From contig DASYRL010000067.1 in assembly GCA_036004445.1 (NCBI GenBank), positions 1,499-65,498 on the forward strand: a stretch of 64,000 nucleotides of DNA, in the 5' to 3' direction. The stretch comes from a bacterium. GTDB lineage: Bacteria; Sysuimicrobiota; Sysuimicrobiia; Sysuimicrobiales; Kaftiobacteriaceae. A model generated the notes under the pieces. It was given only the letters and a program-made list of their open reading frames with translations. It was not told the DNA's origin and ran no database searches. Positions 15,197-38,970 of this stretch are shown piece after piece (position 1 is the first letter of the stretch; every line of letters begins with the position of its first letter). Both the position numbers and the translations under genes were made by a program.

Positions 15197-15901
15197 TCAG
15201 CCGAAGGCCGCCCGGTACTCTCTCACCGCCTTGGGGCCGTTCCGCTCCAGCGCCGCATAGAAAGCCTCGCGGTCCTGGTGGCGGAAATCCATCCGCTCGA
15301 CGTGGAATGGCGCGAGACGCTCACCCCCTCGGCGCCGGTCCACGACATTGAGGAAGTACTCGACGGCGTTGACGATGCTGGCTGGATCCGTCCAGTCGGA
15401 TTTGTACACGGGCACACCGGAGGCGGCGAAGATCCAGCTCATATTTGGCATGGAGCCGTATGCGCGATGGCAGGCGCCGTCCAGCGCATCGACGAGAATC
15501 GGACGCGTGACGCCGAGCCGGTCGCGCAACGCGCGCGCGTGCCGCAGCTTCTGTGCCATCGAGGTGTGGTGGGGGTAGAATTCGCCCGGATGCGCTTCGT
15601 GCGTGTAGAGGAAGACCGAGCCAACGCCTTGAGGAGCGACCCGCTGCGCGATCCCGTTCATGGATGGCGCCGCCATCCCGCAGTAGGGTCAGGTGAAGCT
15701 CCCAAATTCGACGATCGTGTACGTGTGCTGCGCCCAGATGGCAGACAGGCGCGTCTCGGCGCCGTCTAGGCCCCAGAGCGGGAAATCGGGGGCGGGCTGC
15801 CCGAGCGGCGGGCTTGCGGAGAAATTCAACCAGGGGCCGAACTTCTCAGGAATGAATTCATCGTAGTTGTAGCGGACCAGCAGGGCCGAATCGTTCACCA
15901 C
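15197..15901 (-). CDS. iodothyronine deiodinase-like thioredoxin-fold protein, candidate selenoprotein (in-frame TGA at 15689-15691)
   Basis: ORFs 15689..15901 and 15197..15676 share a frame. Read-through gives APDFPLWG...VEFGSFT-U-PYCG...LYTHEAHPGEF...HRAYGSMPN, 234 aa. Confidence 0.75.
15662..15678 (-). promoter_or_regulatory. candidate bacterial SECIS hairpin
   Basis: RNA GGAUGGC-GGC-GCCAUCC (7 bp, GGC loop) starts 10 nt after the UGA. Confidence 0.55.
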
Positions 15902-15942
15902 AGCCCCTCGCTCCAGGGAAGGATCCGAGATCTCTGCCGCCG

Positions 15943-16098
15943 CTAGTGACTGCCTTCGTGCGCGTCCTTGAGGACGTCTTCCCGCGTAATGTCCCTGCCG
16001 TGCTCTTTCTTCATGTGCTCCTGGGCCTTGCGGACGAGCTCGTCATCCGAATCGGCATGAACCGTATGGCCCATGGCGCACGCCCAATGTCTGTGCAT
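15943..16098 (-). CDS. DUF1059-like small protein
   Basis: MHRHWACAMGHTVHADSDDELVRKAQEHMKKEHGRDITREDVLKDAHEGSH. Start chosen at ATG 16098, preceded by GGAGGTG with a 5-nt spacer. ORF track gives 15943..16170. Confidence 0.55.
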   Translation of the reverse strand: MHRHWACAMGHTVHADSDDELVRKAQEHMKKEHGRDITREDVLKDAHEGSH

Positions 16099-16657
16099 CT
16101 GACCACCTCCATCCGAGAATACGCGTACCATCGTATTGTTGCCGAGCTCGCCGGCCGGCGACTGTAACACGGCTTACACTTTTTGAACCTGGCCGCCGGC
16201 GGCTGAGGCCTTCACCAGGTAACGCGGCCCCACATCTCTATGACCGCCTTCGACGTTCGAGCTGCCCGGCGCTGCCCTTGCGATCAGCTTCTTCTGGCGG
16301 GCGTGGTCGGAGGCCTGCTCGCCACCATGTTCGCCGGGTACGTCTTCTTCCGAAGGTAAGCGCGCTGACAGCCGGCACGGCCCGTCGCGGGGACAATGGT
16401 GTCCGAATCACGGTGGAAGGAGGCGACGGCATGCCCGATCGCGTCCGACCAGGCATTCGCGCCGCGCGTGGGGCTGGTGCATGTGCCCAAGCTGGAGAAG
16501 GCTAGCGGGGATGATCCGGAGAGGCTGTCGTGCTGTGTGGAGTGACAGGAGTGAGAGGCGATACGCGTGCATAGTCGCTGCGATTGCTCTCCTCGGCATC
16601 CTGTCCCTCGCAGCGGCCGGGCACGGCGCGTGAGGACTGGCAACACCGTAAGACCGC

Positions 16658-17260
16658 CTAGCGCGATGGCGGAGGCGAGAACCGGATCAACTCCTCCGCG
16701 AACGTCTGCATCTGCTCAAAGGTCAGCAGGCCGGCGTGCTTGCGCAGAATCCGGCCGTCCGCGGTGATGAACACCGTGGTCGGCATGCCGAGGATCTGGT
16801 ATGTGTCGGTGATGTCCTCGTCGAACACCGTCCCCGCCGGATAGCGGATGCCCAGGGTCCGGAGCAGCGCCTGTCCCTCCTCGCGGGTGCCCAATCCCGT
16901 GTAGGGCCCGACGTCGATGCTGATCAGCACGAACCGATCTCCGGCCTGGTCGGCCAGCCGCTGCAGGTCAGGCATCTCGGCGCGGCACGGCGGGCACAGG
17001 CCGGCGAAGAAGTTGACGACGACGGGCTTTCCCCGCGCCCACACCTGAGAGAGTCGAACGACGTTTCCCCCGACGGCCTCGGCGCCCTGGTACATTCGAA
17101 TCTCGATGTCCGGCGCCCGGGGGAGGGGTTGTCCGGCCGGCGCAGAGGGGGGTGGCCCCTCCGTACGCGGAGGGCCGATGAGGCGGATGACCCCGACGGC
17201 GACGAGAAAGCTGCCGGCGAGGAGCAGCAGCCAGAGAATGAGGCGACGCTGTGCGGACAT
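16658..17260 (-). CDS. TlpA/ResA-family thiol:disulfide oxidoreductase, membrane-anchored
   Basis: 200 aa. N-terminal TM helix, then a redoxin fold with FFAGLCPPCRAEMP. Confidence 0.85.
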   Translation of the reverse strand: MSAQRRLILWLLLLAGSFLVAVGVIRLIGPPRTEGPPPSAPAGQPLPRAPDIEIRMYQGAEAVGGNVVRLSQVWARGKPVVVNFFAGLCPPCRAEMPDLQRLADQAGDRFVLISIDVGPYTGLGTREEGQALLRTLGIRYPAGTVFDEDITDTYQILGMPTTVFITADGRILRKHAGLLTFEQMQTFAEELIRFSPPPSR

Positions 17261-17332
17261 GGGAAATAATTCTCCGTCGAACAGAGTATCATCAATCGAG
17301 AGGACGGTTTCAGTAAGACAGGAGACAGATCG

Positions 17333-17566
17333 ATGGCCAAGTCCGTAGTGCTCTACTCACAGCCGGGCTGACTGTTCTGCGGTAAGGTGAAGGAGTTCCT
17401 TCACCAGAAGGGTGTTGCCTTCGAGGAGAAGGACATCAGCCGCGACGATCGGGCCCTGGATGAACTGCTCGAGAAAGGGTTTCAGGCCACGCCCGTGACC
17501 GTCATCGACGGCGACGCGGTGGTAGGATTCAACAAAGCCAAGCTCGAGGAGCTGCTGGGCCGGTAG
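17333..17566 (+). CDS. glutaredoxin/NrdH-like protein, candidate selenoprotein (in-frame TGA at 17369-17371)
   Basis: Not in the ORF track. MAKSVVLYSQPG-U-LFCGKVKEFLHQKGVAFEEKDISRDDRALDELLEKGFQATPVTVIDGDAVVGFNKAKLEELLGR. AGGAGA lies 7 nt before the ATG. Confidence 0.8.
17386..17405 (+). promoter_or_regulatory. candidate bacterial SECIS hairpin
   Basis: Perfect 8-bp stem GGUGAAGG / CCUUCACC with loop AGUU, starting 14 nt after the UGA. Confidence 0.7.
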
Positions 17567-17580
17567 GGAGGCCGAACGCC

Positions 17581-18000: not shown

Positions 18001-18001
18001 C

Positions 18002-26598: not shown

Positions 26599-27648
26599 AT
26601 GCCAAGGATGTTGACCGGACTGCTGCTTGCCGTCATGGTGCTGCTGGGAGGATGCCAGGCGCCCGTACCGGCACAGACCATCACGCTGAATGGAGCCGGG
26701 GCGACGTTCCCATTCCCCCTGTATTCGAAGTGGTCCCAGGTCTACGCAGCGGAGAAGGGTGTGCAGATCAACTACCAGTCGATTGGTTCCGGCGGCGGGA
26801 TCCGGCAGTTCATCGAAAAGACGGTGGACTTTGGAGCATCCGACGGCCCGATGACCGACGAGCAGATCCGCCAGGCGGGCGGCCGCGTCCTGCACGTGCC
26901 GATGGTGGCCGGCGCCGTCGTGCCCGTGTACAATATCCCGGGCGTCACGATCGGGCTGAACTTCACCCCCGACGTGCTGGCCGACATCTTCCTCGGCAAG
27001 ATCACCAAGTGGAACGATCGCCGGATCGTGCAGGCCAATCCCAAGGCGGCGCTGCCGTCCGCCGACATCGTCGTCGTTCACCGCTCCGACGGGTCGGGCA
27101 CGACCGCGATCTGGGTCAACTACCTCAGCAAGGTCAGCAAAGAGTGGAAGGAGAAGGTCGGCGAAGGTACGTCGGTGAACTGGCCGACGGGATTGGGCGG
27201 GCGCGGGAACGAGGGCGTCGCGGGATTGGTCCGGCAGACCCCCAACACACTGGGCTACGTCGAACTGGCCTACGCGCTGACCAACAAGATGACCTTTGGG
27301 AACGTGCGTAACAAGACAGGCCAGTTCGTCCGGCCGTCGCTGTCCAGCACTACCAAAGCAATGGAAGGAGCGCTTGCGTCGATCCCGGCGGACTATCGAG
27401 TGTTCTTCACCGACCCGGCCGGCCGCGACGCGTACCCGGTCGCCGGCTTCACGTGGATCCTCATCTACGGGGAGCAGGCGGATCCCGCGAAGGGAAAGGC
27501 GTTGGTGGACTTCCTGTGGTGGGCGGTGCATGACGGACAGAGGTACGCCCCGACCTTGCTCTACGCCCCTTTGCCAAAGAGTCTAGCGGCCCGCATCGAA
27601 AGTACCCTAAAGACGGTCACCGCACGGGGGCAGCCCATCCTGCGGTAG
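26599..27648 (+). CDS. pstS: phosphate ABC transporter substrate-binding lipoprotein PstS
   Basis: ORF 26536..27648 trimmed to ATG 26599 (GGGAGGA 6 nt upstream). Lipobox LLGGC, GAGATFP and SGGG motifs. Confidence 0.9.
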   Translation: MPRMLTGLLLAVMVLLGGCQAPVPAQTITLNGAGATFPFPLYSKWSQVYAAEKGVQINYQSIGSGGGIRQFIEKTVDFGASDGPMTDEQIRQAGGRVLHVPMVAGAVVPVYNIPGVTIGLNFTPDVLADIFLGKITKWNDRRIVQANPKAALPSADIVVVHRSDGSGTTAIWVNYLSKVSKEWKEKVGEGTSVNWPTGLGGRGNEGVAGLVRQTPNTLGYVELAYALTNKMTFGNVRNKTGQFVRPSLSSTTKAMEGALASIPADYRVFFTDPAGRDAYPVAGFTWILIYGEQADPAKGKALVDFLWWAVHDGQRYAPTLLYAPLPKSLAARIESTLKTVTARGQPILR

Positions 27649-27656
27649 AGGGCATC

Positions 27657-28610
27657 GTGGCGGTCAACTCAGCAGCGCCCCGGTCGCCGGTCCGCGCAAC
27701 AGGCGATCGGGTATTCCAATACGTGTTGGCGGCGACGGCCGTCGCCATCCCGCTGATCATGGGCGCGATGCTGATCGCGCTGATCGATGCCGGCATGCCC
27801 GCGATCCGGCGGTTCGGGCTCGCGTTCTTTGCCACCTCGACGTGGGATCCCGTGGCCGGTGAATTCGGCGTCCTGCCGTTCGTCTACGGCACCCTGGTGT
27901 CGTCGGCGGTCGCCCTGTTGCTTGCCGTCCCGCTGGGGTTGGGTGTGGCCATCTTCCTCTCGGAGCTGGCGCCGGGGTGGGTGCGCACGCCCGTCCGGTT
28001 CCTTGTCGAGCTGCTCGCCGCAATTCCCAGCGTGGTCTACGGCCTGTGGGGGATCTTTGTCCTCGTCCCGTGGGTGCGCGCCACACTCACGCCGCTGCTG
28101 AAATCGACGCTGGGATTTCTCCCGCTGTTCACCGGACCGCCGCTGGGCATCGGCATGCTCACCGCCGGATTGGTCCTCGCGATCATGGTCGTGCCCTTCA
28201 TCGTCGCGCTGAGTACCGAGGTCATGCGCACCGTGCCGCGCTCGCAGCGGGAGGCCGCGCTGGCCCTGGGGGCCACGGGGTGGGAAACCACCCGGACGGC
28301 CGTCATCCCCTACGCGCGCTCGGGGATCGCGGGGGCGATCTTCCTGGCGCTGGCCCGTGCGCTGGGCGAGACGATGGCCGTGACGATGGTGATCGGGAAC
28401 GTGCCACAGATCAAGGCGTCGCTGCTCGCTCCCGCTTATACCGTGTCGGCCGTCATCGCCAACGAGTTTGCCGAGGCGACGAGCGACCTCTACGTTGCCG
28501 CGCTCGTCTACGCCGGACTCGTCCTGTTCCTGGTGACCCTGACCGTCAACATCCTTGCGCGGGTGCTCGTGCGGCGCGTCGCCCGCGGCCCGGCCCTGAT
28601 CCGAGAGTGA
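27657..28610 (+). CDS. pstC: phosphate ABC transporter permease PstC
   Basis: 317 aa. Multi-TM with the EAALALGATGWET EAA loop. Confidence 0.9.
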   Translation: MAVNSAAPRSPVRATGDRVFQYVLAATAVAIPLIMGAMLIALIDAGMPAIRRFGLAFFATSTWDPVAGEFGVLPFVYGTLVSSAVALLLAVPLGLGVAIFLSELAPGWVRTPVRFLVELLAAIPSVVYGLWGIFVLVPWVRATLTPLLKSTLGFLPLFTGPPLGIGMLTAGLVLAIMVVPFIVALSTEVMRTVPRSQREAALALGATGWETTRTAVIPYARSGIAGAIFLALARALGETMAVTMVIGNVPQIKASLLAPAYTVSAVIANEFAEATSDLYVAALVYAGLVLFLVTLTVNILARVLVRRVARGPALIRE

Positions 28611-29493
28611 TGGCGATTCTGGATCGAAGCCCGAAGCCCGATGCCCGAGGCCCGTCGGTCTCGAATGGTCGGCGCCGCGTCACCAACTCGGCGATGGCGG
28701 CCGTGACGTTCCTGTGCACGCTCGCCGTGCTGACCCCGTTGTTCCTCATCTTGGGATTTCTGCTGCGCACCGGGGTGGGCGCGCTCAACCTGGACTTCTT
28801 CACGCATCTGCCCGGCGCAGCCGGCGAGCCGGGGGGTGGGATGGCGAACGCGATCGCGGGAACGATCATGCTGCTCGGCCTCGCGGGGCTGGTGGGAATC
28901 CCGCTGGGCGTGCTGGGTGGCGTGTTCCTGGCCGAGTATCCCGGCAGCCGCCTCGGAGATGTGGCCCGCTTGACCGCCGACGTGCTGAACGGGATGCCGA
29001 GCATCGTGATGGGGTTGTTTGCCTACGTCCTGATCGTGCTGCCGCTGCGCCACTTCAGCGCGCTGGCCGGGGGCGTAGCGCTTGGCGTGATGTTGATCCC
29101 GACCGTGGTCCGCACGACGGAAGAGATCGTGCGGCTGGTGCCGCAGAGCATCCGCGAAGCCTCGCTCGCGCTGGGCATCCCGGTGTGGAAGACCACGCTG
29201 CGGGTGGTGGTGCCGACGGCCTCGGCCGGCATCGTCACCGGCATCATGGTCGGCCTGGCGCGTATTGCCGGGGAAACCGCGCCGCTGCTATTCACGGCAT
29301 TTGGGAACCGCTTCTGGAACTGGAACGTGTTGAAGCCGGTCGCGGCGCTGCCGCTGCAGATCTTCGCGTATGCGATCTCGCCGTTTGACGACTGGCACCG
29401 CCAGGCCTGGGCCGGAGCGCTCGTGCTGGTGGGACTGGTGCTGGTGGTCAACGTCGCCGCGCGGTTTGCCGCGGGACGCCAGGTGAAGCTGCG

Positions 29494-29497
<4 letters not shown>
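28610..29497 (+). CDS. pstA: phosphate ABC transporter permease PstA
   Basis: ORF 27977..29497 trimmed to ATG 28610 (TGATG overlap with pstC). [16 protein letters not shown] loop. Confidence 0.9.
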
Positions 29498-30351
<854 letters not shown>

Positions 30352-30356
30352 AGATC

Positions 30357-30385
30357 GGGAACAGGGAACGGGGAACGGGGAACGG
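30357..30385 (+). repeat. tandem heptamer GGGAACN x4 filling the pstB-phoU spacer
   Basis: GGGAACA GGGAACG GGGAACG GGGAACG G, followed directly by ATG 30386. Confidence 0.85.
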
Positions 30386-31060
30386 ATGAGCCACAGCACA
30401 ATGCATCCCAGGGAGTCGTTCGAGCAGGCGCTGCGCGGCCTGGAAGACGATATCGTCCGGATGGGCACCATGGCCGGGGCGCTCATCCACCGGGCCATTG
30501 AGGCCCTGCAGGCGCGTGATGCGGGAGAAGCCGACGCCGTGATCGCCGATGACACCCGCGTCGACGCGCTCCATCTGGAAATCGAGCAGCGGGTCATCGC
30601 TCTGCTGGCGACCCAGCAACCGATGGCTCGCGACCTCCGCGAGCTGACCAGCACCATGGCGATCTCGATCGACCTGGAACGGATGGCCGACCATGCCGAG
30701 GGGATCGGCAAGGCGATCAAGCGGCTGATCAAGGAGCCCCCGCTGAAACCGGTGGTAGACATTCCCCGTATCGAACAGATCGTGCAGGGGATGCTCCAAG
30801 ACGCCCTCGACGCCTTCGTGCGCCGCGACGTGGCGCTCGCCGAGTCGCTCGCGGCGAAGGACGACATGGTCGATGACCTCCGATCGCAGGTGTTTCGGGA
30901 ACTCCTCGCCGACATGGTCAAGGATCCGCAGACCACCAGCCGGGCGTTGGAATTGATCCTCGTCGCCCAGCACCTCGAGCGGGCCGCCGACCACATCACC
31001 AACGTCGCCGAGCGGGTGATCTACCTCGTGACCGGAGAGATGCGCGAGCTCAACGTCTAG
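30386..31060 (+). CDS. phoU: phosphate signaling complex protein PhoU
   Basis: 224 aa. Two PhoU repeats, each with an (E/D)xxxD-type motif (DLERMADHA, HLERAADHI). Confidence 0.9.
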   Translation: MSHSTMHPRESFEQALRGLEDDIVRMGTMAGALIHRAIEALQARDAGEADAVIADDTRVDALHLEIEQRVIALLATQQPMARDLRELTSTMAISIDLERMADHAEGIGKAIKRLIKEPPLKPVVDIPRIEQIVQGMLQDALDAFVRRDVALAESLAAKDDMVDDLRSQVFRELLADMVKDPQTTSRALELILVAQHLERAADHITNVAERVIYLVTGEMRELNV

Positions 31061-31449
31061 TCCGGGAGCCGTCGCACGAGATCGGCGACACGGATCCGCA
31101 GATCGTCCCGGATCCCGCGGACAAACTTCAGATCCCGCCCGACGGGATCCGGCAGCGGCCAGTGCTCGTTGGGGACGCCCGGGACGACCGGGCAGGCCTC
31201 CTCGGCGCACAACCCGATGACCAGCGCCACCTCGGGGGTCAGCGCCTCGTCGAGCGATTTTGGATACTGCCCCTGCAGGTCAAAGCGCAATTCCCGCATG
31301 ACCTCATAGGTCTGCGGCATGATCTGAGTTGCCGGCGCCGTCCCCGCGGAACCTGCGCGCCACCCGGGCGGAGCCAGCGCATTGAAGAAGGCCTCCGCCA
31401 TCTGGGAGCGCATGCTGTTCCCGCGTCAGACGAATAAGACGCGTTGCAT
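31057..31449 (-). CDS. arsC: thioredoxin-coupled arsenate reductase (LMW-PTP fold), candidate selenoprotein (in-frame TGA at 31426-31428)
   Basis: ORF 31057..31413 extends upstream in frame: MQRVLFV-U-RGNSMRSQMAEAFF... The P-loop CX5R has U at the nucleophile position. The ArsC Cys82/Cys89 equivalents (GLCAEEACP) are present. GAGGAGG lies 5 nt before ATG 31449. Confidence 0.7.
31404..31422 (-). promoter_or_regulatory. weak candidate SECIS hairpin
   Basis: RNA GGGAACAGCAUGCGCUCCC: a GGGA/UCCC base with imperfect inner pairs, starting 3 nt after the UGA. Much less convincing than the other three. Confidence 0.25.
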
Positions 31450-31462
31450 AGCCGCCTCCTCG

Positions 31463-31530
31463 GTACCAGGTACTTTCCCCGGGGAATCAAGTACCTGGTA
31501 CGTATTTGGCCGACAACTCGTACCTGGTAC
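31463..31530. repeat. three copies of the near-palindromic 11-mer GTACC(A/T)GGTAC spaced 28-29 bp
   Basis: GTACCAGGTAC 31463-31473, GTACCTGGTAC 31491-31501, GTACCTGGTAC 31520-31530. A CCCCGGGG palindrome lies between copies 1 and 2. Confidence 0.8.
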
Positions 31531-31536
31531 CAGTTC

Positions 31537-32787
31537 CTACTGTGTTCCGCCGCGAGAGCGCTGGTAGGCCAACAGCAGAGGCCCGAGCACCAGCGCCAGG
31601 ACATACCCGTAGGGGACGAGTCCGGCGATCAGCCCGATGAGGAGGGCAACGCGCAGCTGGTACCGTGGCTCCTCCAGCCGGCCGACCAGGGACATCAGCC
31701 CTAGCGCTTCAAAGAGCAGGAGCACCCCGAGCATCGGCAATGGAAAGACGTGGATGATCCGGTCGAACCCGCCGCTGAAGAACGCCCCCAGGAACAGGTA
31801 CAGCAGGCCGTAGATGACGACCGATCCGCCCGTGCGGGCGCCGAAGGTGTAGTGACCGACGAACCCACCCGAGCCGTGACAGGTAGGGATTCCCCCAAAC
31901 CATGGATTCACCAGGTTCATCAGCGCGTACGTCCCGCCGATCTTCCGCAGCCCTGGCGCGCGATCCGGAAAGAAATCCCGTGCAACCTGTTGCGTGGCGA
32001 GGATCGAGTTCCCCAACGACAAGGGAATCTGCGGCAGCGCCAGGATCACGAGGCCGCTGAGGACGTCGGCGGTGACCGGGATGCGAAACGCCGGCAGTCG
32101 GAAGCCGATGCTCGCGGCCACCCCGGCGGTGTCGAGGGTAAACGCAAAGGCGTACGCCACGCCCAGCGCAATCACGAACAGGGCGGCAGGGAAGCGACGG
32201 TTGCCCAGCAGCAGGATGACGATCAGGAACGCCGCCGCCGCCAGCACGTAGCCCGGAAGTCCTTCCGCGGGGACGTACTCGCGAAGCGCCAGCGAGGCCA
32301 GCTGCAGGCCAAGGCCGAACTGGATGCCGCGGATGACGGTCGTCGGGATCACGCGTGCCAGCCACGCCAACAATCCAGTGACGGTGAGGACCAGCATCAG
32401 GATGCCGACTGCCAGTCCACCACCAAACAGCACGCCTGCGGCGAGTTTCTGGCTGATCACGATCGCAGCCATGGCCTTGAGGGGTTGAACGGGCATCGGC
32501 ATTCGGTACATCAGGCCCGTACCAACCTGCATCAGGCCGAACATGATCAACACGCTCGCGCTGTCCAGACCGGCGGCCAGGATCAGGCCAACGATCAGCG
32601 GAAGATCGGTCCCGATGTCGCCGAACGCACCGGCCAGTTCATTGCGGTCGAACCGAATGGGCGGGCGATCGGCGGTATGAGATGACGCCGAGTGGCCGGT
32701 ATCGCGGTCACGCACGCTGAGCCTAGTTCGGTCAAGGCCGTGCTCCTCCTCGTCGGCTCCGCACCCCCGCCTGACGCCAATCCGCAC
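31537..32787 (-). CDS. MOT1/SulP-related putative sulfate/molybdate transporter
   Basis: 416 aa. ELAGAFGDIGTDLPLIVGL and PMPVQPLKAMAA motifs of the MFS_MOT1-type family. Multi-TM. The start is uncertain. Confidence 0.65.
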   Translation of the reverse strand: MRIGVRRGCGADEEEHGLDRTRLSVRDRDTGHSASSHTADRPPIRFDRNELAGAFGDIGTDLPLIVGLILAAGLDSASVLIMFGLMQVGTGLMYRMPMPVQPLKAMAAIVISQKLAAGVLFGGGLAVGILMLVLTVTGLLAWLARVIPTTVIRGIQFGLGLQLASLALREYVPAEGLPGYVLAAAAFLIVILLLGNRRFPAALFVIALGVAYAFAFTLDTAGVAASIGFRLPAFRIPVTADVLSGLVILALPQIPLSLGNSILATQQVARDFFPDRAPGLRKIGGTYALMNLVNPWFGGIPTCHGSGGFVGHYTFGARTGGSVVIYGLLYLFLGAFFSGGFDRIIHVFPLPMLGVLLLFEALGLMSLVGRLEEPRYQLRVALLIGLIAGLVPYGYVLALVLGPLLLAYQRSRGGTQ

Positions 32788-33310: not shown

Positions 33311-33350
33311 TTTCCCCTACGTGTTAGGATAGAAGCGACAACTACAGACG

Positions 33351-33487
33351 ACCTTCGGGGCAGGGTGCGCCCGTTCGACGTAGCTCAGGGCAATTCCCGA
33401 CCGGCGGTACAGCCCGCTACCCGCCGATTGCGGCGGTGGATCCGGTGTGATTCCGGGGCCGACGGTATAGTCCGGATGGGAGAAGGT
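33351..33487 (+). promoter_or_regulatory. FMN riboswitch (RFN element) aptamer
   Basis: P1 ACCTTC (33351-56) / GAAGGT (33482-87). Conserved CTTCGGGGCAGGGTG, ATTCCCGACCGGCGGTA, AGCCCG, GGTGGAT, GCCGACGGTATAGTCCGGATGGGAGAAGG blocks. Upstream of ribU. Confidence 0.85.
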
Positions 33488-33497
33488 CAAACTTCAC

Positions 33498-33581: not shown

Positions 33582-34130
33582 ATGAGACGGCTCACGCAGG
33601 TTGCACTGCTTGGCGCGGTCGCCTTTGCGTTCATGTACTTCGAATTTCCACTGCCGGGGTTTCCGCCGTACCTGAAGTACGACCCGAGTGAAGTTCCCGC
33701 CCTGATCGCGGCGTTTGCCCTTGGCCCCGCATACGGAGTAGCGGTGGAAGCCATCAAGGCCGTGCTGATCGGCGTGTTCCGCTCGGCCCCCTTGGGCGGG
33801 CCATTTGGGATCTTCATGAATTTTCTCGCCGGCGTCACCCTTGCCGGCGTGGCCGGAGCGTACTATCTGTTCGAGCGCACGAAAGCCGGCGCGATCAAAT
33901 CCCTGATCATCGGCGTGCTGGCGATGTCCGGCGTCATGATCGTCGCCAACATCGCATTGACGCCGGTCTTCTTTGGCATACCGCGCCCGCAGGTCATCGC
34001 CCTGGTCCTCCCGGCACTCCTGCCGTTTAATCTGCTCAAGGGCGCCATCAGTTCTGTGGCGACCTTCTTCGTCTACAAGCGGGTGCGGGCGTATCTCTAC
34101 GAGCGTATTACGGATAGAGCCGCGTGGTGA
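33582..34130 (+). CDS. ribU: ECF transporter S component, riboflavin transporter RibU-like
   Basis: 182 aa. FEFPLPGFPPYLKYDPSEVPALIAAFALGP motif. Directly downstream of the FMN riboswitch. Confidence 0.8.
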   Translation: MRRLTQVALLGAVAFAFMYFEFPLPGFPPYLKYDPSEVPALIAAFALGPAYGVAVEAIKAVLIGVFRSAPLGGPFGIFMNFLAGVTLAGVAGAYYLFERTKAGAIKSLIIGVLAMSGVMIVANIALTPVFFGIPRPQVIALVLPALLPFNLLKGAISSVATFFVYKRVRAYLYERITDRAAW

Positions 34131-35707
34131 AGGGTACACTCTTCACCGCTGACCGGATCTATACGCTGGACCCCAGCCCATCGGTTGTCGAGGCGCTGGC
34201 CGTCTTAGGCGGCAGCGTCGTGGCCAGAGGGCGCGCTACAGATCTCAGCAACGAGTTTTCCGGCTTTGACCGGGTCGATTTCGGCGCCCGCACGATCCTC
34301 CCGGGATTCGTCGACAGCCATATCCATCTCGCATCGCTAGGTATCGCGCTGCGCCGCGTCGAGCTGCGTGAGGCCGCATCGTTGGCCGACGCCGTCGCGC
34401 GGGTCGCCGTGGCGGCGGGCCGGACCCGGCGGGAGGACTGGATTCTCGGCCGCGGGTGGGACAAGAACCTCTGGCCGGAGGGCCGGTTCCCCACGAAGTT
34501 CGATCTCGACGCGGCCGTTGCCGACGCCCCCGTCGCGCTGACCAGCAAAGACGGCCATCTGCTCTGGGTCAATTCCGCCGCGCTGGCGCTCGCCGGCGTT
34601 GATGCGCAGACCGCCGACCCTCCGGGCGGCGTTATCGACCGCAGCGCTTCGGGGGAGCCCAGCGGTCTGCTGAAAGAAGAAGCGCGAGACCTGATCACCC
34701 GGGTCATTCCGCCCTCCGGTCCGCTGGACGTCGAAGACGGCATCCGCAACGCTGTCGCGTTGCTCCACTCCTACGGCATCGTCGGCGTGCACGACTTCGA
34801 AGGACCTGAAGTGTTTGCCGCGTTTCAGCGCCTGGCCGCCCGCGGGGAGCTGCGGCTGCGGGTCTGGAATGCGATTCCCGAATCCGGCCTGCCCGCCGCG
34901 ATCGAGTCCGGTCTGCGGTCCGGGTTCGGGAACGACTGGCTTCGCGTCGGGCCGGTCAAGATCTTCTCCGACGGCACGCTGGGGTCGCAGACCGCCAACA
35001 TGCTTGCGCCGTTCGAAGGGCAGCCGCAGAACCAGGGAGTCGCCATCCGCTCGCGGGACGAATTGGTCGAGCTGGTCGGGCGCGCGGTGGCCGGCGGGTT
35101 CTGGTGCGCGATCCACGCGATCGGCGACCGCGCCAACCGATGGGTGCTCGACGCCTACGAACAGCACGCCGCGTCGTCGGCGCAGCTGGGCGCCCGCCAT
35201 CGCATCGAGCACGTGCAGGTCCTGGATCCTACCGACCTGACGCGTCTGGCGCGGCTGGGGGTGATCGCGTCGATGCAGCCGATCCACGCGACCGCCGATC
35301 GCGACGTCGCCGACCGCTACTGGGGCGCGCGCAGCCGCTACGCCTACGCGTGGCGGACGCTGCTGGACGCGGGCACCCATCTGGTCTTCGGCTCAGACGC
35401 GCCGGTGGAGACCGCGAACGTGATCGAAGGACTATACGCGGCGTCTGCCCGGCGGCGCCCCGGGCAGACGGACGCCTGGTATCCGGAGGAGGCCCTCACC
35501 GCTGCCGACGCGGTGCGCGCGTACACGACCGGCGCCGCCTACGCGTCGGGCGCGGAGCATCGGGGCGGGACGCTGGCGGTCGGAAAATGGGCGGACTTCG
35601 TCGTGCTCGATCGGGATCCACTGACGGTTCCGGCGGACGAACTGCTGCAGACCCGTGTGGCGACGACCGTCATCGGCGGCGAGTCCGTCTATGACGCTGG
35701 GGTATAA
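34124..35707 (+). CDS. amidohydrolase family protein (Amidohydro_3, YtcJ-like)
   Basis: 527 aa. PGFVDSHIHL, HAIGDRAN, IEHVQ, GSDAPVE metal-ligand blocks. Confidence 0.85.
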   Translation: MVKGTLFTADRIYTLDPSPSVVEALAVLGGSVVARGRATDLSNEFSGFDRVDFGARTILPGFVDSHIHLASLGIALRRVELREAASLADAVARVAVAAGRTRREDWILGRGWDKNLWPEGRFPTKFDLDAAVADAPVALTSKDGHLLWVNSAALALAGVDAQTADPPGGVIDRSASGEPSGLLKEEARDLITRVIPPSGPLDVEDGIRNAVALLHSYGIVGVHDFEGPEVFAAFQRLAARGELRLRVWNAIPESGLPAAIESGLRSGFGNDWLRVGPVKIFSDGTLGSQTANMLAPFEGQPQNQGVAIRSRDELVELVGRAVAGGFWCAIHAIGDRANRWVLDAYEQHAASSAQLGARHRIEHVQVLDPTDLTRLARLGVIASMQPIHATADRDVADRYWGARSRYAYAWRTLLDAGTHLVFGSDAPVETANVIEGLYAASARRRPGQTDAWYPEEALTAADAVRAYTTGAAYASGAEHRGGTLAVGKWADFVVLDRDPLTVPADELLQTRVATTVIGGESVYDAGV

Positions 35708-35748
35708 TGAACGTTGGTATCCCCCACACGCGTGAAGGAGGCGAGAAG

Positions 35749-36363
35749 ATGGCATACCCGAAGTACGAGGCCAAGAAGTTTCCCGCGTTCGACATGGAGC
35801 TGGCTGGAATTTCCAAGAAGACGATGGAGGAGCACTACAAGCTCTACCAGGGCTACGTCAACAAAGCCAACGAGATCCACGAGAAGCTCGGCATGGTGGA
35901 TCGGGATCCCGCCAAGGCCAATCCGACCTACTCGGATATCCGCGAACTGAAAGTTGAGCTCACGCGCGCCGTGGGCGGCGTGAAGAACCACGAGTTGTAC
36001 TTCACCTTGATCGGCGGCAAAGGGGGCGCGCCCTCGGGCAAACTGGCCGACCTGATCGTCCGCGATTTCGGCTCGGTCGAGGACTGGCAGAAAGACCTCA
36101 AGGCCACCGGGATCGCCGCGCGGGGCTGGGCCTGGACCGCGTACGACTGGGACACCGAGCGGCTGTTCAACTACATCGGTGATGAGCAGAACACCTTCCC
36201 GATCTGGGGTGCGTCACTGCTCGTCGCGTTGGACTGCTTCGAGCACGCGTATTGGGCCGACTTCTACACCGGCAAGGCTGCGTATATCGACACCTTCTTC
36301 AAGCTGCTTGATTGGAAGTACGTGGAGAAATTCGCGGAGTCCATCGGTATGTTCCGTTCCTAA
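35749..36363 (+). CDS. Fe/Mn superoxide dismutase family protein
   Basis: ORF 35707..36363 trimmed to ATG 35749 (GAAGGAGG upstream). EEHYKLYQGYV and LDCFEHAYWADF align with the SOD metal-ligand regions. Confidence 0.75.
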   Translation: MAYPKYEAKKFPAFDMELAGISKKTMEEHYKLYQGYVNKANEIHEKLGMVDRDPAKANPTYSDIRELKVELTRAVGGVKNHELYFTLIGGKGGAPSGKLADLIVRDFGSVEDWQKDLKATGIAARGWAWTAYDWDTERLFNYIGDEQNTFPIWGASLLVALDCFEHAYWADFYTGKAAYIDTFFKLLDWKYVEKFAESIGMFRS

Positions 36364-36398
36364 ACCAGTAACGGATCCGACTCGTCCTACAGGCGGGC

Positions 36399-37001
36399 AT
36401 GGACGCAGAAGACCGGGCATTAGTCGAGGCATTCAAAGGCGGCGAAGAGAGCGCCTTCACGGCCCTCGTGATCAAATATCGCGAGGCGGTGTACCGCATT
36501 GCCCGCCGCATGCTGCGCAGCCACGAGGATGCGTCGGACGTGACACAGGAAGTCTTCATCCGTGTGCACCGGTCGCTGGCCCGATTCGAAGCGCGTTCCA
36601 GCCTGAAGACGTGGCTGTACCGGATCACGATGAACCTGTCCCTCGACCGCTCCGCCCGCGGGTCGCGGTTCGTCCTGTCGGGGCTCCGTGAGCTGGAATG
36701 GGAGCCGTCATCGGAGCAAGATCCGGGCGCGACGGCGGTCGACAAGGAATTGGGCCGCGTCATCCGCTCCGCTGTGGATGACCTTCCTCCCCGGCAACGG
36801 GCGATGATGCAGCTGCGGCTGTACCAGGATCTGCCCTACGCCGAGATTGCGCGGATCATGGGATGCGCGGAAGGCACCGTCAAGGCGACGATGTTTGCGG
36901 GGATGGCGAAGCTGCGGAAGGCGCTGACGCCTTACGTGCGCGAGACCGCGGAAACGCGGAAACACGGAAACGCGGAAACGCGGCGATCCAACCTGCCATG
37001 A
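36399..37001 (+). CDS. ECF (RpoE-like) sigma-70 family factor
   Basis: 200 aa. Region 2 (DVTQEVFIRVHRSL, WLYRITMN) and region 4 (YAEIARIMGCAEGTVKATM). The tail ETAETRKHGNAETRRSNLP is encoded by a tandem repeat. Confidence 0.85.
   Translation: MDAEDRALVEAFKGGEESAFTALVIKYREAVYRIARRMLRSHEDASDVTQEVFIRVHRSLARFEARSSLKTWLYRITMNLSLDRSARGSRFVLSGLRELEWEPSSEQDPGATAVDKELGRVIRSAVDDLPPRQRAMMQLRLYQDLPYAEIARIMGCAEGTVKATMFAGMAKLRKALTPYVRETAETRKHGNAETRRSNLP
36948..36983 (+). repeat. tandem octamer GCGGAAAC x4.5 at the sigma factor 3' end
   Basis: GCGGAAAC GCGGAAAC ACGGAAAC GCGGAAAC GCGG. Ends 14 nt before the anti-sigma ATG 36998. Confidence 0.85.
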
Positions 37002-37498
37002 ACTGCATGGATGCGCGGGAATTGATGCTCGACGCGATGACGACGCAGGCGCCGCCGGACGTGCGGCGCGTGCTGCTCGCCCATCTCGACGACTGTGCAG
37101 ACTGCCGGACCGAGGCCGCGCAGTTCGAGCACGTGGTCGGGCTGCTGCGCGCGCTGCCGGATCCGGGGCCGCCTCCCGGGTACTGGGTTGAGTTCATGAC
37201 GACCCTCGAGCGGCGGATCGGCGAGGATGGGTCGGTCTGGGGCCGGGTGGTCCAGTGGCTGCGAATGCCGCGCATGTCTTGGACCGCCGCCGTGGCCACG
37301 GCCGTGATCGCCGTCGTCATCGCCCTGACGTTTACGGTGCTGTCACCTCAGAACGCGGCGGCGCCCACGCCCATCACGGGCCTCGTGACCGAATCGGTGC
37401 GGCAGGCCGCGCCGGGTGTGCAGGCGACGCTGACGTTGTGGAATAGCGGATTGACCGGGGTCGAAGTCCCCTACGACTTCAGGCCGGGAGGCAGGTAG
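36998..37498 (+). CDS. anti-sigma factor (zf-HC2 type), single TM
   Basis: ORF 36863..37498 trimmed to ATG 36998 (ATGA overlap). LAHLDDCADCRTEA zinc motif and TM WTAAVATAVIAVVIALTF. Confidence 0.7.
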   Translation: MNCMDARELMLDAMTTQAPPDVRRVLLAHLDDCADCRTEAAQFEHVVGLLRALPDPGPPPGYWVEFMTTLERRIGEDGSVWGRVVQWLRMPRMSWTAAVATAVIAVVIALTFTVLSPQNAAAPTPITGLVTESVRQAAPGVQATLTLWNSGLTGVEVPYDFRPGGR

Positions 37499-37536
37499 GC
37501 TTGCCGTGCACCCGAGCGACGCGAGTGGTGGACGGC

Positions 37537-38028
37537 ATGCCGTGGCGCCGGCCACTGCTCGCGTTGGTGGCCGCCGTCCTCGTCCTGGCAATCCCGGCCG
37601 CCGGCCAGGCTCCTTACCGCGATCCCCGCGCGGAGCGGATCATCGAAGCCCTGATGATCTGGCGGCTGGTAGATGAAGTCAACCTCACCGAATTCCAGAT
37701 CGGACGGATCTTCCCGCGGCTGAAGGCCCTCAAGGAAATCCGCTTCGAAATCGCACGCCGGCGCGCCCAGATCCGGAACGAGTTGAACGCGCTGCTGGTC
37801 CAGCAGCCGCGCAACGACGACTTGATCCGCGCCAAGATCGACGAGCTCGACCAGTTCCGCCGCGAGATCGAACTGCGCCGGCAGCGGATCATCCAGGAGA
37901 TCAACAACGTGCTGACGATCAGCCAGCGCGCGAAGTTTGCCCTGATCCAGGAAACGTTCGAAGCGGAGACGCTGCGGCTGCTGGAAGAAGTGCGCCGGTT
38001 GGTGGAGGAGCAGCAGAGGAGGCAGTGA
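37537..38028 (+). CDS. periplasmic Spy/CpxP-like (LTxxQ) protein
   Basis: Signal peptide MPWRRPLLALVAAVLVLAIPAAG. LTEFQ and LTISQ motifs. Helical, charged C-terminus. Confidence 0.65.
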   Translation: MPWRRPLLALVAAVLVLAIPAAGQAPYRDPRAERIIEALMIWRLVDEVNLTEFQIGRIFPRLKALKEIRFEIARRRAQIRNELNALLVQQPRNDDLIRAKIDELDQFRREIELRRQRIIQEINNVLTISQRAKFALIQETFEAETLRLLEEVRRLVEEQQRRQ

Positions 38029-38031
38029 TTT

Positions 38032-38087
38032 GTGACTCGTGACTGGTGACTGGCCAGAACCGAGTCGAGTCACGAGTCACGAGTCAC
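38032..38087. terminator. long hairpin built from inverted GAGTCAC heptamer repeats between convergent genes
   Basis: GTGACTC GTGACTG GTGACTG (38032-52), loop, then GAGTC GAGTCAC GAGTCAC GAGTCAC (38062-87). The arms are largely complementary. Confidence 0.6.
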
Positions 38088-38264
38088 CCGGTCCTCTCGA
38101 ACGAAGTAGTCTGCCTTCCTATAGGTTCCTCGCTCGCCGCAGTGGGGGCACGTATGGTAGTTCGCTGCCAGCGTCCCCTTCTCGAAACTCCGCCGGTCCA
38201 ATCGGAGCGGAGTCTCAAACTCTCGTGCGCATGCTTTGCACGCAACCGTAAGACGCAGTTTCAT
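38070..38264 (-). CDS. small zinc-ribbon protein (hypothetical)
   Basis: 64 aa. CKAC...CPHC pairs. The C-terminal VTRDS is encoded by the heptamer repeat. Confidence 0.45.
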   Translation of the reverse strand: MKLRLTVACKACAREFETPLRLDRRSFEKGTLAANYHTCPHCGERGTYRKADYFVREDRVTRDS

Positions 38265-38283
38265 GGGTTATAGTAATCGTAGC

Positions 38284-38970
38284 ATGGCGTTTTTGAACCC
38301 GCAGGACGCCGAGTTCATCCGCAGGCGGTTCGCCTCCGAGCTGAAAGGCGACGTTACGCTGGAGTTTTTCGCTCCGAGCGCAGGGGGCCTCGTGCTGCCC
38401 GGACAGGACGGGGAGACGGCGGAGTACACGCGCAGGATCCTTGAAGAAGTGGCCGGCCTCTCCGACCGGGTCCGCCTCACCGTACACAGCGTCGTGACGG
38501 AGCCGGAGGTCGTCCGGCGGTTTGGGATCGAGCGCACGCCGGCCATCGCGTTTGTCGGTGCGGAAGATTATGGAATCCGATACTACGGGATTCCCGGCGG
38601 GTACGAGTTCGCCACCCTGCTGGAACTGATCATTGCCGTCTCGGTGGGCCGGGCCGACATCGCCGAGTCCTCAAAGGACGCGCTTGCCCGGCTGAAGGAG
38701 AGCGCGCACATTCAAGTCTTCGTCACGCCGACCTGACCGCACTGTCCGCGCCCGGCCAGGCTGGCCGGCCTGCTGGCCATCGAGAGCGCGAAGGTCAGCG
38801 CGGACATCGTCGAGGCCAGCGAGTTCCCCGAGCTCGCGGAGCGATACGCCGTCTATGCGGTTCCGAAGATTGTCATCAACGACGACACCGAGTTCGTCGG
38901 CGCCCAGCCGGAAGCCCACTTCGTCGCCTACGTGGCCAACGCGGCCGGTGTCGAAGAACCGGCCGGATAG
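38284..38970 (+). CDS. glutaredoxin-like/protein disulfide oxidoreductase (PDO, two Trx-fold units), candidate selenoprotein (in-frame TGA at 38734-38736)
   Basis: ORF 38236..38736 continues in frame: ...HIQVFVTPT-U-PHCPRPARLAGLLAIESAKVSADIVEASEFPELAERYAVYAVPKIVINDDTEFVGAQPE...*. TAG at 38968-38970. Start at ATG 38284 is tentative. Confidence 0.75.
38752..38768 (+). promoter_or_regulatory. candidate bacterial SECIS hairpin
   Basis: CCGGCC-AGGCU-GGCCGG (6 bp, loop with GG), starting 15 nt after the UGA. Confidence 0.55.

What the first reader, a model, noticed from the sequence alone, without database searches (positions are those of the whole stretch)
15197..38970. Four UGA-recoded thiol-chemistry genes within 24 kb point to a Sec-rich redox proteome that ORF callers miss
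In each of the four genes the TGA falls exactly on the N-terminal or nucleophilic Cys of a known motif.
- Deiodinase-like, 15689-91: T-U-PYC.
- Glutaredoxin-like, 17369-71: G-U-LFC.
- ArsC, 31426-28: V-U-RGNSMRS.
- PDO-like, 38734-36: T-U-PHC.

In each case the resolving Cys is kept, coding-like sequence continues in frame, and a hairpin follows within about 3-15 nt. Two of the genes flank a TlpA-type CPPC redoxin and a CoA-binding protein. In the supplied track all four appear split, truncated or missing.
Basis: partly seen in the sequence, partly recalled or inferred. Interest (0 to 1): 0.75.

Follow-up and report, generated by a model that had tools for sequence, protein, structure and literature searches.

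The report
Four selenocysteine genes, one uncatalogued family
Four redox genes in this window carry a conserved in-frame UGA at the catalytic cysteine position and are almost certainly selenoproteins that gene callers cut in two; three belong to known selenoprotein families, and the fourth, an arsenate-reductase-like enzyme of the low-molecular-weight phosphatase fold, is in no selenoprotein catalogue I could search.

Summary
All four in-frame TGAs sit where stated. A codon-model scan of the window's 23 TGA-terminated genes finds only these four with coding sequence continuing in frame.

Comparative evidence shows the codons are translated:
- **g1 (deiodinase/redoxin-like):** TGA at the same codon in 80 of 80 species genomes examined.
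- **g3 (LMW-phosphatase/ArsC-like):** TGA in 32 distinct orthologue sequences, and TGC (Cys) in two distant relatives.
- **g4 (PDO):** TGA in all six distinct orthologue sequences. Close database homologues are exactly 150 aa, that is, cut at the TGA.
- **g2 (glutaredoxin):** TGA in the one orthologue whose DNA I could read, with CxxC in full-length relatives.

In solved structures U aligns with the catalytic Cys, and with the Sec position of deiodinase 3.

g1, g2 and g4 each have a hairpin that meets the published bacterial SECIS consensus, and g1's shows clear covariation. g3 has no canonical SECIS. It has two conserved, covarying helices instead.

g1, g2 and g4 belong to known selenoprotein families. 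The LMW-phosphatase-type g3 is absent from a 2026 catalogue of 119 families and has no NCBIfam selenoprotein model, so it is a candidate new family.

Sec machinery (selA, selB, selD, tRNA-Sec) is not in the window and could not be searched for in the genome.

The parts
15197..15901 (-). g1: deiodinase/redoxin-like selenoprotein gene, 234 codons, UxxC motif (T-U-PYC). The Sec codon TGA is at 15689-15691.
   Evidence: Translation. Pfam Redoxin, AhpC-TSA and sub-threshold T4_deiodinase. TGA conserved in 80/80 genome loci. U aligns with the Sec position of mouse Dio3, 4TR3.
15662..15678 (-). g1 SECIS hairpin GGAUGGC-GGC-GCCAUCC: 7 bp, GGC loop, 17 nt between the UGA and the loop.
   Evidence: 99.3% of cells paired over 78 sequences, and three pairs with compensatory changes. 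Synonymous-site entropy falls to 0-0.7 bits here against about 1.7 elsewhere. Hairpin energy is -10.2 kcal/mol.
17333..17569 (+). g2: glutaredoxin/NrdH-like selenoprotein gene, 78 codons, G-U-LFC. TGA at 17369-17371.
   Evidence: Translation. Pfam Glutaredoxin 55 bits. Orthologue L024 also has TGA. Full-length relatives have CxxC. U aligns with the first Cys of CPHC in 7C10.
17386..17405 (+). g2 SECIS hairpin GGUGAAGG-AGUU-CCUUCACC: 8 bp, 22 nt from the UGA to the loop.
   Evidence: Energy z-scores are -3.0 against dinucleotide shuffles and -2.4 to -3.2 against synonymous-codon shuffles. DNA identity to L024 is 44/45 for UGA+45 nt, against 73-78% in the rest of the gene. Hairpin energy is -12.2 kcal/mol.
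31057..31449 (-). g3: LMW-phosphatase-fold, pI258-type ArsC-like selenoprotein gene, 130 codons. P-loop U-R-G-N-S-M-R-S, with TGA at 31426-31428. Partner cysteines C81 and C86.
   Evidence: Translation. Pfam LMWPc 69 bits. TGA in 32 distinct orthologue sequences, each with an ATG/GTG (GTA in L121) seven codons upstream. U, C81 and C86 align with Cys10, Cys82 and Cys89 of S. aureus ArsC.
31335..31413 (-). g3 conserved RNA structure after the UGA. Helix H1 pairs 31408-31413 with 31355-31360. Hairpin H2 spans 31335-31352 with a CGGGNA loop. A variable inner hairpin lies at about 31368-31398.
   Evidence: 96.9% of cells paired over 32 sequences. Pair 78-93 shows five pair types, and pair 18-72 is compensated. 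Synonymous sites are frozen on both arms. Pairing is lost in the two Cys-form relatives. It does not meet the 16-37 nt spacing rule. In the window's own clade H2 has one U-C mismatch.
38284..38970 (+). g4: protein disulfide oxidoreductase (two thioredoxin folds, homologue of the AhpF N-terminal domain) selenoprotein gene, 228 codons, T-U-PHC. TGA at 38734-38736.
   Evidence: Translation. NCBIfam TIGR02187 PDO_seleno_TRX 226.8 bits, above the cut-off of 185. Six distinct orthologue sequences have TGA plus 77-85 further codons. Close database homologues are exactly 150 aa. U aligns with the first Cys of the C-terminal CPYC of Pyrococcus PDO.
38752..38768 (+). g4 SECIS hairpin CCGGCCA-GGC-UGGCCGG: 7 bp, GGC loop, 22 nt from the UGA to the loop.
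   Evidence: The outermost pair C-G becomes G-C in three orthologues, coupled to P-to-A and G-to-A amino-acid changes. Hairpin energy is -11.9 kcal/mol.
13983..15188 (+). DUF3179 gene (Cys form, CPLC motif, N-terminal membrane anchor), convergent with g1. Likely functional partner.
   Evidence: Pfam DUF3179 364 bits. A DUF3179 gene lies within about 10 kb of the g1 orthologue, often immediately adjacent, in more than 20 genome loci.
16658..17260 (-). TlpA/ResA-type membrane-anchored thiol:disulfide oxidoreductase (CPPC), between g1 and g2.
   Evidence: Pfam Redoxin and AhpC-TSA. Synteny kept in L024.
31537..32715 (-). MOT1-family (molybdate/sulfate-type) transporter directly upstream of g3 on the same strand.
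   Evidence: Pfam MFS_MOT1. Adjacent to g3 orthologues in L094, L097, L106 and L114.

Best explanation
The four genes are genuine bacterial selenoprotein genes. In each, UGA is recoded to selenocysteine by SelB and Sec-tRNA(Sec), directed by an RNA structure inside the coding sequence just downstream. Sec replaces the attacking Cys of a thiol-redox active site.

- **g1:** a UxxC redoxin related to deiodinases and peroxiredoxins.
- **g2:** a UxxC glutaredoxin/NrdH-type disulfide reductase.
- **g4:** a UxxC protein disulfide oxidoreductase.
- **g3:** a thioredoxin-coupled, pI258-type arsenate-reductase-like enzyme. Sec would take the place of Cys10, attack the oxyanion and be resolved through a Se-S bond by C81. 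C81 would then form a disulfide with C86 for reduction by thioredoxin.

For g1, g2 and g4 the signal is a canonical 7-8 bp hairpin with a G-containing 3-4 nt loop, 17-22 nt after the UGA.

For g3 I propose a composite signal. Helix H1 starts 12 nt after the UGA and loops out 47 nt that encode the constrained P-loop and first helix. This brings hairpin H2, with its G-rich loop, next to the UGA.

What is shown: TGA conservation, Cys/Sec alignment, RNA covariation and the fold assignments. What is inferred: Sec rather than another residue, the SelB dependence, the g3 chemistry and the H1/H2 model.
For: **TGA conservation**
- g1: 80/80 species genomes, mostly Chloroflexota, some labelled Armatimonadota, with 'VEFGSFT*PYCG' conserved on both sides.
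- g3: 32 distinct orthologue sequences with 'M-x-R/T-V-L-F-V-*-x-G/H-N-x-A-R-S'. The seven upstream codons vary synonymously.
- g4: six distinct orthologue sequences.
- g2: L024.

**Truncated database homologues**
- g1: most homologues are 154-159 aa.
- g3: 113-122 aa, starting after the TGA.
- g4: exactly 150 aa.

**Cys forms at the same position**. U aligns to the catalytic Cys or Sec in solved structures.

**RNA evidence**
- g1 helix: 99.3% paired, three compensated pairs, frozen synonymous sites.
- g3 helices: 96.9% paired, with five pair types at one pair, and pairing lost in the Cys forms.
- g4: a compensatory change.
- g2: 44/45 nt identity after the UGA against about 75% elsewhere.
- The g1, g2 and g4 hairpins meet all four criteria of the published bSECIS model (PMC13188914, section 5).

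**No code reassignment.** TGA terminates 23 of the 62 genes in my map of the window.

**Family precedent** for g1, g2 and g4.
Against: - No tRNA-Sec, selA, selB or selD in the window or in 1.47 Mb of related loci. The rest of the genome could not be searched.
- There is no proteomic or 75Se evidence.
- Folding energy is not significant for g1, g3 or g4 in this G+C-rich DNA.
- g3 lacks a canonical SECIS. A fixed-register inner hairpin is only 66% paired. H2 lies 79 nt from the UGA and has a mismatch in the window's own clade.
- g2 rests on a single orthologue DNA sequence.
- g4 covariation rests on one pair among six sequences.
Confidence: 0.9

Rival explanations
1. The TGAs are real stops: pseudogenes, nonsense mutations or assembly errors. 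Only the fragments, or nothing, are made.
For: Public annotations call the fragments as separate or truncated genes. One g1 homologue has TGG and another TTC at the position, so the codon can mutate.
Against: The same TGA occurs in 80/80 g1 genomes, 32 distinct g3 orthologue sequences and six g4 sequences from independent assemblies. Protein-level conservation and synonymous variation are seen on both sides. Each fragment would lack half an active site or a core beta-strand: g3 without beta1 and the P-loop Cys, g4 without its active thioredoxin fold.
Confidence: 0.02
2. UGA is reassigned genome-wide (to Trp or Gly, as in some bacterial lineages), so these are ordinary sense codons.
For: Some pipelines report full-length homologues with W at the position.
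Against: TGA ends 23 of the 62 genes in my map of the window, with non-coding sequence after it. In-frame TGA occurs only at positions aligned with a catalytic Cys, never elsewhere in these or neighbouring genes. The one W case I checked is a true TGG.
Confidence: 0.01
3. The UGAs are recoded, but to cysteine or another residue (near-cognate read-through, or a Cys-charged tRNA-Sec-like tRNA) rather than to selenocysteine.
For: Sec machinery was not observed. g3 has no canonical SECIS. Unusual tRNA-Sec-like species are known from metagenomes (PMC5389517, listed; not read).
Against: g1, g2 and g4 have canonical bSECIS hairpins with the conserved loop G. Three of the families are established selenoprotein families. 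Keeping a costly UGA plus an RNA structure merely to insert Cys, when TGC is one mutation away, has no obvious selective reason.
Confidence: 0.05

Closest known systems
Bacterial deiodinase-like / redoxin-family UxxC selenoproteins (Sargasso Sea 2005, PMC1088965; catalogue entries 'Deiodinase-like protein PF00837' and 'Redoxin family protein PF08534' in PMC13188914)
   Same: g1 has a thioredoxin-fold UxxC motif. Its U aligns with the Sec of mammalian deiodinase 3. A SECIS lies directly downstream. Both Cys and Sec forms exist.
   Different: The Pfam T4_deiodinase score (23.0) is below the gathering score (27), and NCBIfam NF038285 is far below its cut-off. The clade is a large, mostly Chloroflexota group (206 species genomes), and its members often lie next to a DUF3179 gene.
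Selenoprotein glutaredoxin (PF00462, UxxC; listed as experimentally verified in PMC13188914 Table 1)
   Same: g2 is a small Grx/NrdH-type protein with U at the first position of CxxC, and it has a canonical SECIS.
   Different: It is below the cut-offs of the specific NCBIfam Grx subfamilies (YruB 73.5 against 88.6). The motif is U-L-F-C, not CPYC.
[quoted passage not shown] 12)
   Same: g4 scores 226.8 bits against a cut-off of 185. It has two thioredoxin folds and UxxC in the C-terminal unit.
   Different: Nothing of substance. The N-terminal unit has no CxxC, as in AhpF-type members.
Thioredoxin-coupled arsenate reductase ArsC of S. aureus pI258 / B. subtilis (LMW-PTPase fold; PDB 1LJL, 1JL3)
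   Same: g3 has the same fold, and a P-loop X-X-G-N-S-X-R-S with the nucleophile at the same position. The two relay cysteines align with Cys82 and Cys89, and an Asp-Pro motif is present. It sits among oxyanion transport genes (pst-phoU, MOT1, mod).
   Different: The nucleophile is Sec rather than Cys. The relay cysteines are spaced C-x4-C, not C-x6-C. The second P-loop Cys (Cys15) is Met or Ala. The TIGR02691 score is 71 bits against a cut-off of 174. Activity is untested.
Known ArsC selenoproteins (pfam03960/COG1393/TIGR00014, UxxS; cd03032/NF041106, UxxC)
   Same: Both are arsenate-reductase-named enzymes with Sec at the nucleophile.
   Different: These belong to the unrelated ArsC/Spx thioredoxin-like fold. 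g3 is of the LMW-phosphatase fold (PF01451), which appears in none of the catalogues read.

Membership tests
Bacterial selenoprotein gene (general) | In-frame UGA at a position occupied by Cys in homologues, with conserved coding sequence on both sides | tested here: met
   All four genes.
Bacterial selenoprotein gene (general) | bSECIS consensus: 3-9 nt apical loop with G in its first two positions, 4-16 bp stem, 16-37 nt from the UGA to the loop, MFE <= -7.5 kcal/mol (PMC13188914, section 5) | tested here: met
   g1: loop GGC, 7 bp, 17 nt, -10.2 kcal/mol. g2: loop AGUU, 8 bp, 22 nt, -12.2. g4: loop GGC, 7 bp, 22 nt, -11.9. Covariation was found for g1 and g4.
Bacterial selenoprotein gene (general), applied to g3 | The same bSECIS consensus | tested here: not met
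   No hairpin in the 16-37 nt range meets the rules. The conserved H2 hairpin has a suitable loop (CGGGNA) and stem (6 bp) but lies 79 nt from the UGA. H1 and H2 covary. BSepDB reports 87.4% of its selenoprotein entries as having canonical SECIS elements, so about 13% do not.
Bacterial selenoprotein gene (general) | tRNA-Sec, SelA, SelB and SelD encoded in the genome | not testable with these tools
   None in the window or the fetched loci.
Bacterial selenoprotein gene (general) | Selenium in the protein | not testable with these tools
   Needs 75Se labelling or mass spectrometry.
Iodothyronine deiodinase family (PF00837) | Pfam score at or above the gathering threshold | tested here: not met
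   23.0 bits against 27. Redoxin and AhpC-TSA pass. The closest solved structures are Dio3 and Dio2, with U on the Sec position.
Glutaredoxin (PF00462) | Pfam score above threshold, and CxxC at the N-terminus of helix 1 | tested here: met
   55.4 bits against 22.9. U-L-F-C aligns with C-P-H-C of 7C10.
TIGR02187 protein disulfide oxidoreductase (PDO_seleno_TRX) | NCBIfam equivalog score above the cut-off, and the C-terminal CxxC | tested here: met
   226.8 bits against 185. T-U-PHC aligns with T-C-PYC of 1J08 and 1A8L.
LMW phosphatase superfamily (PF01451) | Pfam score above threshold, and a C-X5-R-(S/T) P-loop after beta1 | tested here: met
   69.3 bits against 23.2. U-RGNSM-R-S follows 'RVLFV'.
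Thioredoxin-coupled ArsC, pI258 type (TIGR02691) | Equivalog score above the cut-off | tested here: not met
   71.3 bits against 174.3. g3 is therefore filed as ArsC-like, not as an equivalog.
Thioredoxin-coupled ArsC, pI258 type | Three-cysteine relay (Cys10, Cys82, Cys89) | tested here: met
   U8, C81 and C86 align with Cys10, Cys82 and Cys89 of 1LJL and 2CD7, with a 2-residue shorter spacer.
Thioredoxin-coupled ArsC, pI258 type | Arsenate reductase activity dependent on Trx, TrxR and NADPH | not testable with these tools
   Biochemical assay needed. The oxyanion-transport gene context is only suggestive.

The most novel reading that the evidence does not exclude
g3 defines a selenoprotein family that has not been catalogued. 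It would be the first with Sec as the P-loop nucleophile of the LMW-phosphatase/pI258-ArsC fold. It occurs in uncultured soil and groundwater lineages (the few NCBI records with organism names read Armatimonadota bacterium or bacterium). Recoding would be directed by a non-canonical, bipartite signal: a clamp helix (H1) loops out 47 nt of constrained coding sequence and brings a distal G-loop hairpin (H2) next to the UGA. That architecture would also explain why SECIS-model-based searches have missed the family.
Probability: 0.4. Interest if true: 0.6.

Novelty: new member of a known kind. Interest (0 to 1): 0.5.

Why it matters
- **Annotation.** Thousands of public records of these four families are truncated or split at the Sec codon. 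Examples are NCBI 'arsenate reductase ArsC' entries that start at MRSQ, and JGI 'AhpF' fragments of 150 aa. The active-site residue is missing from the databases, and redox capacity in Chloroflexota-like and Armatimonadota-labelled lineages is underestimated.
- **g3.** It would add a non-thioredoxin fold, and a phosphatase-type C-X5-R active site, to the set of enzymes that use Sec. It would also give a natural Sec/Cys pair for asking what selenium buys in arsenate reduction or phosphoryl transfer.
- **The g3 RNA structure.** It is a concrete, testable candidate for one of the 'distinct classes of bSECIS' that current models do not describe.

Tried and rejected
- GC3-only screening for read-through junctions gave 74 candidates and was too noisy, so I replaced it with a codon log-odds model.
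- Single-sequence folding energies, against dinucleotide and synonymous-codon shuffles, do not discriminate in this G+C-rich DNA except for g2.
- RNAalifold on g3 gave only a weak consensus. A fixed-register 10-bp inner hairpin for g3 is only 66% paired and no better than slid controls, so I dropped it as the conserved element. A hairpin is present there in most members, but in shifting registers.
- Rfam has no match to any of the four downstream regions, even at E <= 5.
- An exact-sequence look-up of the window's CoA-binding protein found nothing.
- tRNA-Sec searches in the window and in all 142 loci fetched by that point were negative. A 95-nt 'tRNA-Gly(acc)' from ARAGORN in L116 has no Rfam support and is a false positive.
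- Literature searches for an LMW-phosphatase or COG0394 selenoprotein found nothing. Two searches failed on term syntax.

Full report
**1. The observation**

- g1, minus strand 15197-15901...VEFGSFT-TGA-PYCGMAAPS..., with the TGA at 15689-15691.
- g2, plus strand 17333-17569: MAKSVVLYSQPG-TGA-LFCGKVKEF..., TGA at 17369-17371.
- g3, minus strand 31057-31449: MQRVLFV-TGA-RGNSMRSQMAEA..., TGA at 31426-31428.
- g4, plus strand 38284-38970...HIQVFVTPT-TGA-PHCPRPARL..., TGA at 38734-38736.

The window is 64-69% G+C throughout. I built a codon log-odds model from its long genes and mapped about 62 genes. For the 23 TGA-terminated genes, and for every gene with an upstream in-frame TGA, I scored the sequence beyond the TGA. 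Only these four junctions have coding-like sequence on both sides. The one other case is an ordinary pair of adjacent same-frame genes. TGA is therefore a normal stop in this genome, and the four cases are exceptional.

Pfam assigns the following:
- g1: Redoxin and AhpC-TSA, with T4_deiodinase just under threshold.
- g2: Glutaredoxin.
- g3: LMWPc.
- g4: Thioredoxin_3.

**2. Are the TGAs translated?**

*g1.* A protein search found 1,540 homologues. Most are 154-159 aa, which means they start just after the TGA. A few full-length ones have Cys at the position.

A scan of one genome per species found relatives in 206 genomes. In all of the best 80 the codon is TGA, inside an invariant 'VEFGSFT*PYCG'. 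These genomes are mostly Anaerolineae, Ardenticatenaceae, Caldilineaceae and other Chloroflexota, with some labelled Armatimonadota.

*g3.* About 300 homologues were found, and nearly all are N-terminally truncated: they begin MRSQ..., MAEG... or at pseudo-starts inside the P-loop. One full-length protein has 'MKRVLFVCVGNSARSQ'.

Of the 40 loci returned by the metagenome scan, every close relative whose N-terminus lies on the contig has 'M-x-R/T-V-L-F-V-TGA-x-G/H-N-x-A-R-S'. An ATG/GTG start (GTA in L121) lies exactly seven codons upstream. Counting the syntenic loci and the window itself, that makes 32 distinct sequences. Two relatives at about 40% identity have TGC. The seven upstream codons vary synonymously, as translated codons do.

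*g4.* Homologues above 60% identity are, with few exceptions, exactly 150 aa, the length of the N-terminal fragment. Those at 45-51% identity are full length. Six distinct orthologue DNA sequences all have TGA followed by 77-85 in-frame codons.

*g2.* The only orthologue whose DNA I could read (L024, 84% identical) has the same TGA. A representative-library search shows three kinds of relative: fragments that begin 'MFC...', relatives with W at the position, and full-length relatives with CxxC there.

*Solved structures.* U aligns with the catalytic residue in every case:
- g3: Cys10 of S. aureus pI258 ArsC. C81 and C86 fall on Cys82 and Cys89.
- g1: the Sec position of mouse deiodinase 3.
- g4: the first Cys of the C-terminal CPYC of Pyrococcus PDO.
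- g2: the first Cys of CPHC in a clostridial-type glutaredoxin.

**3. RNA signals**

The published bacterial SECIS consensus requires four things: a 3-9 nt loop with G among its first two bases, a 4-16 bp stem, 16-37 nt between the UGA and the loop, and an MFE of -7.5 kcal/mol or lower (PMC13188914). Three of the four genes meet it.

| Gene | Hairpin | UGA to loop | Energy |
|---|---|---|---|
| g1 | GGAUGGC-GGC-GCCAUCC | 17 nt | -10.2 kcal/mol |
| g2 | GGUGAAGG-AGUU-CCUUCACC | 22 nt | -12.2 kcal/mol |
| g4 | CCGGCCA-GGC-UGGCCGG | 22 nt | -11.9 kcal/mol |

Folding energy alone is uninformative here, apart from g2. The comparative data are what count.
- g1: over 78 sequences the helix is 99.3% paired, with three compensated pairs. 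No slid control comes close. Synonymous-site entropy falls to 0-0.7 bits in exactly these codons, against about 1.7 elsewhere.
- g4: the outer pair switches from C-G to G-C, together with two coordinated amino-acid changes.
- g2: DNA identity to L024 is 44/45 in the 45 nt from the UGA, against 73-78% in the rest of the gene.

g3 is different. No canonical hairpin lies in range. An unbiased scan for conserved helices found two:
- H1 pairs cols 16-21 with cols 69-74.
- H2 is a hairpin of cols 77-82 with cols 89-94, with a CGGGNA loop.

Together they are 96.9% paired over 32 sequences. One pair shows five pair types, and another is compensated by a synonymous change. The codons involved are frozen at synonymous sites. 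Both helices are lost in the two Cys-form relatives.

My inference is that H1 loops out the 47 nt encoding the P-loop and helix 1, and so places H2 next to the UGA. One weakness is that H2 carries a U-C mismatch in the window's own clade.

**4. Context**

- g1 is convergent with a DUF3179 gene (CPLC motif, membrane-anchored). A DUF3179 gene lies close to the g1 orthologue, often immediately adjacent, in more than 20 genomes. DUF3179 is itself a listed selenoprotein family.
- A TlpA-type CPPC oxidoreductase lies between g1 and g2. A CoA-binding protein and a two-component system follow g2.
- g3 overlaps the end of phoU, at the tail of a pstSCAB-phoU operon. It is preceded on its own strand by a MOT1-family transporter. 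In relatives the neighbour is instead ModE, ModA and ModB. This is an oxyanion setting that fits an arsenate-related role.
- g4 follows a Fe/Mn superoxide dismutase, an ECF sigma factor with its anti-sigma factor, and a Metal_resist-like protein. This arrangement is conserved in L127-L142.
- No Sec machinery gene or tRNA-Sec is in the window or in any fetched locus.

The organism is an uncultured lineage. Its closest public MAGs are labelled 'Armatimonadota bacterium' or simply 'bacterium'.

**5. Comparison with what is known**

Selenoprotein forms of all three of the following are established:
- glutaredoxin;
- the TIGR02187 'AhpF N-terminal domain homologue'/PDO family;
- deiodinase-like and redoxin-family UxxC proteins.

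Selenoprotein-rich bacteria are also known, including Chloroflexota with 46-49 selenoprotein genes. That gene callers miss such genes is a recognised problem.

The known ArsC selenoproteins belong to the ArsC/Spx fold (pfam03960, COG1393, TIGR00014, cd03032, NF041106). The LMW-phosphatase fold (PF01451) appears nowhere in the 2026 catalogue of 119 families and subfamilies. It is also absent from the BSepDB paper's text, from the GOS and 2022 lists, and from the NCBIfam selenoprotein models. NCBI records of g3 orthologues are named 'arsenate reductase ArsC' but are truncated.

g3 is therefore a candidate uncatalogued selenoprotein family. Its non-canonical RNA signal would explain why it has been overlooked. 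I could not query BSepDB or NCBI directly, so prior annotation cannot be excluded.

**6. Verdict**

As a whole this is a new set of members of a known kind. The LMW-phosphatase-type selenoprotein and its unusual downstream RNA structure are the parts worth following up.

- Confidence that all four are genuine selenoprotein genes: about 0.9.
- Confidence that g3 is both unreported and uses the H1/H2 element: about 0.4.

Noticed in passing
window 13983-15188 (+), and loci L011, L025, L026, L028, L031, L058, L075, L081 among others: A DUF3179 gene (CPLC motif, N-terminal membrane anchor) lies close to the g1 orthologue, often immediately adjacent, in more than 20 genomes. This suggests a conserved functional pair. 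DUF3179 is itself listed as a selenoprotein family (UxxC/T).
   Followed up: partly
L001 8258-8818 (Ardenticatenaceae GCA_027493995.1): Another split gene lies 946 nt upstream of the g1 orthologue, with a DUF547 gene between them. It is a Prx-like/AhpC-TSA_2 protein with an in-frame TGA in 'RHLG*LPC', called as separate 43-aa and 142-aa products.
   Followed up: partly
window 33347-33491 (+) and 48235-48457 (+): An FMN riboswitch (99 bits) lies ahead of an ECF-transporter S component (33582-34130). A T-box-like leader (65 bits, below the gathering score of 93) lies ahead of the methionyl-tRNA synthetase gene (48480-50426) and accounts for the 383-nt gap there.
   Followed up: no
L145 666-1385 and L143 3001-3735: Two full-length g1 homologues have lost the Sec codon. 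One has TGG (Trp) but still carries the SECIS-like hairpin. The other has TTC (Phe) in 'TFPNC'. They are either recent mutations or redox-inactive paralogues.
   Followed up: partly
window 26608-32715; L087, L094, L097, L099, L106, L109, L114, L117, L127, L129: g3 orthologues keep the same neighbourhood. pstSCAB-phoU is on one side. A MOT1-family transporter or a ModE/ModA/ModB molybdate system is on the other.
   Followed up: partly
window 35707-38283; L127-L142: A conserved cluster lies upstream of g4: Fe/Mn superoxide dismutase, ECF sigma factor, a putative zf-HC2 anti-sigma factor, and a Metal_resist/LTXXQ-like protein. The window also has a 64-aa ORF with two CxxC pairs, resembling a zinc ribbon, on the opposite strand (38070-38264).
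   Followed up: no
window 11245-12768 (-): A 507-aa pyridine nucleotide-disulfide oxidoreductase with a dimerisation domain (glutathione/mercuric/thioredoxin-reductase-like) lies 2.4 kb from g1. It could be the reductant source for the cluster.
   Followed up: no
L116 6168-6262: ARAGORN reports a 95-nt 'tRNA-Gly(acc)', a length typical of tRNA-Sec. Rfam finds nothing there even at E <= 1, so I treat it as a false positive.
   Followed up: yes
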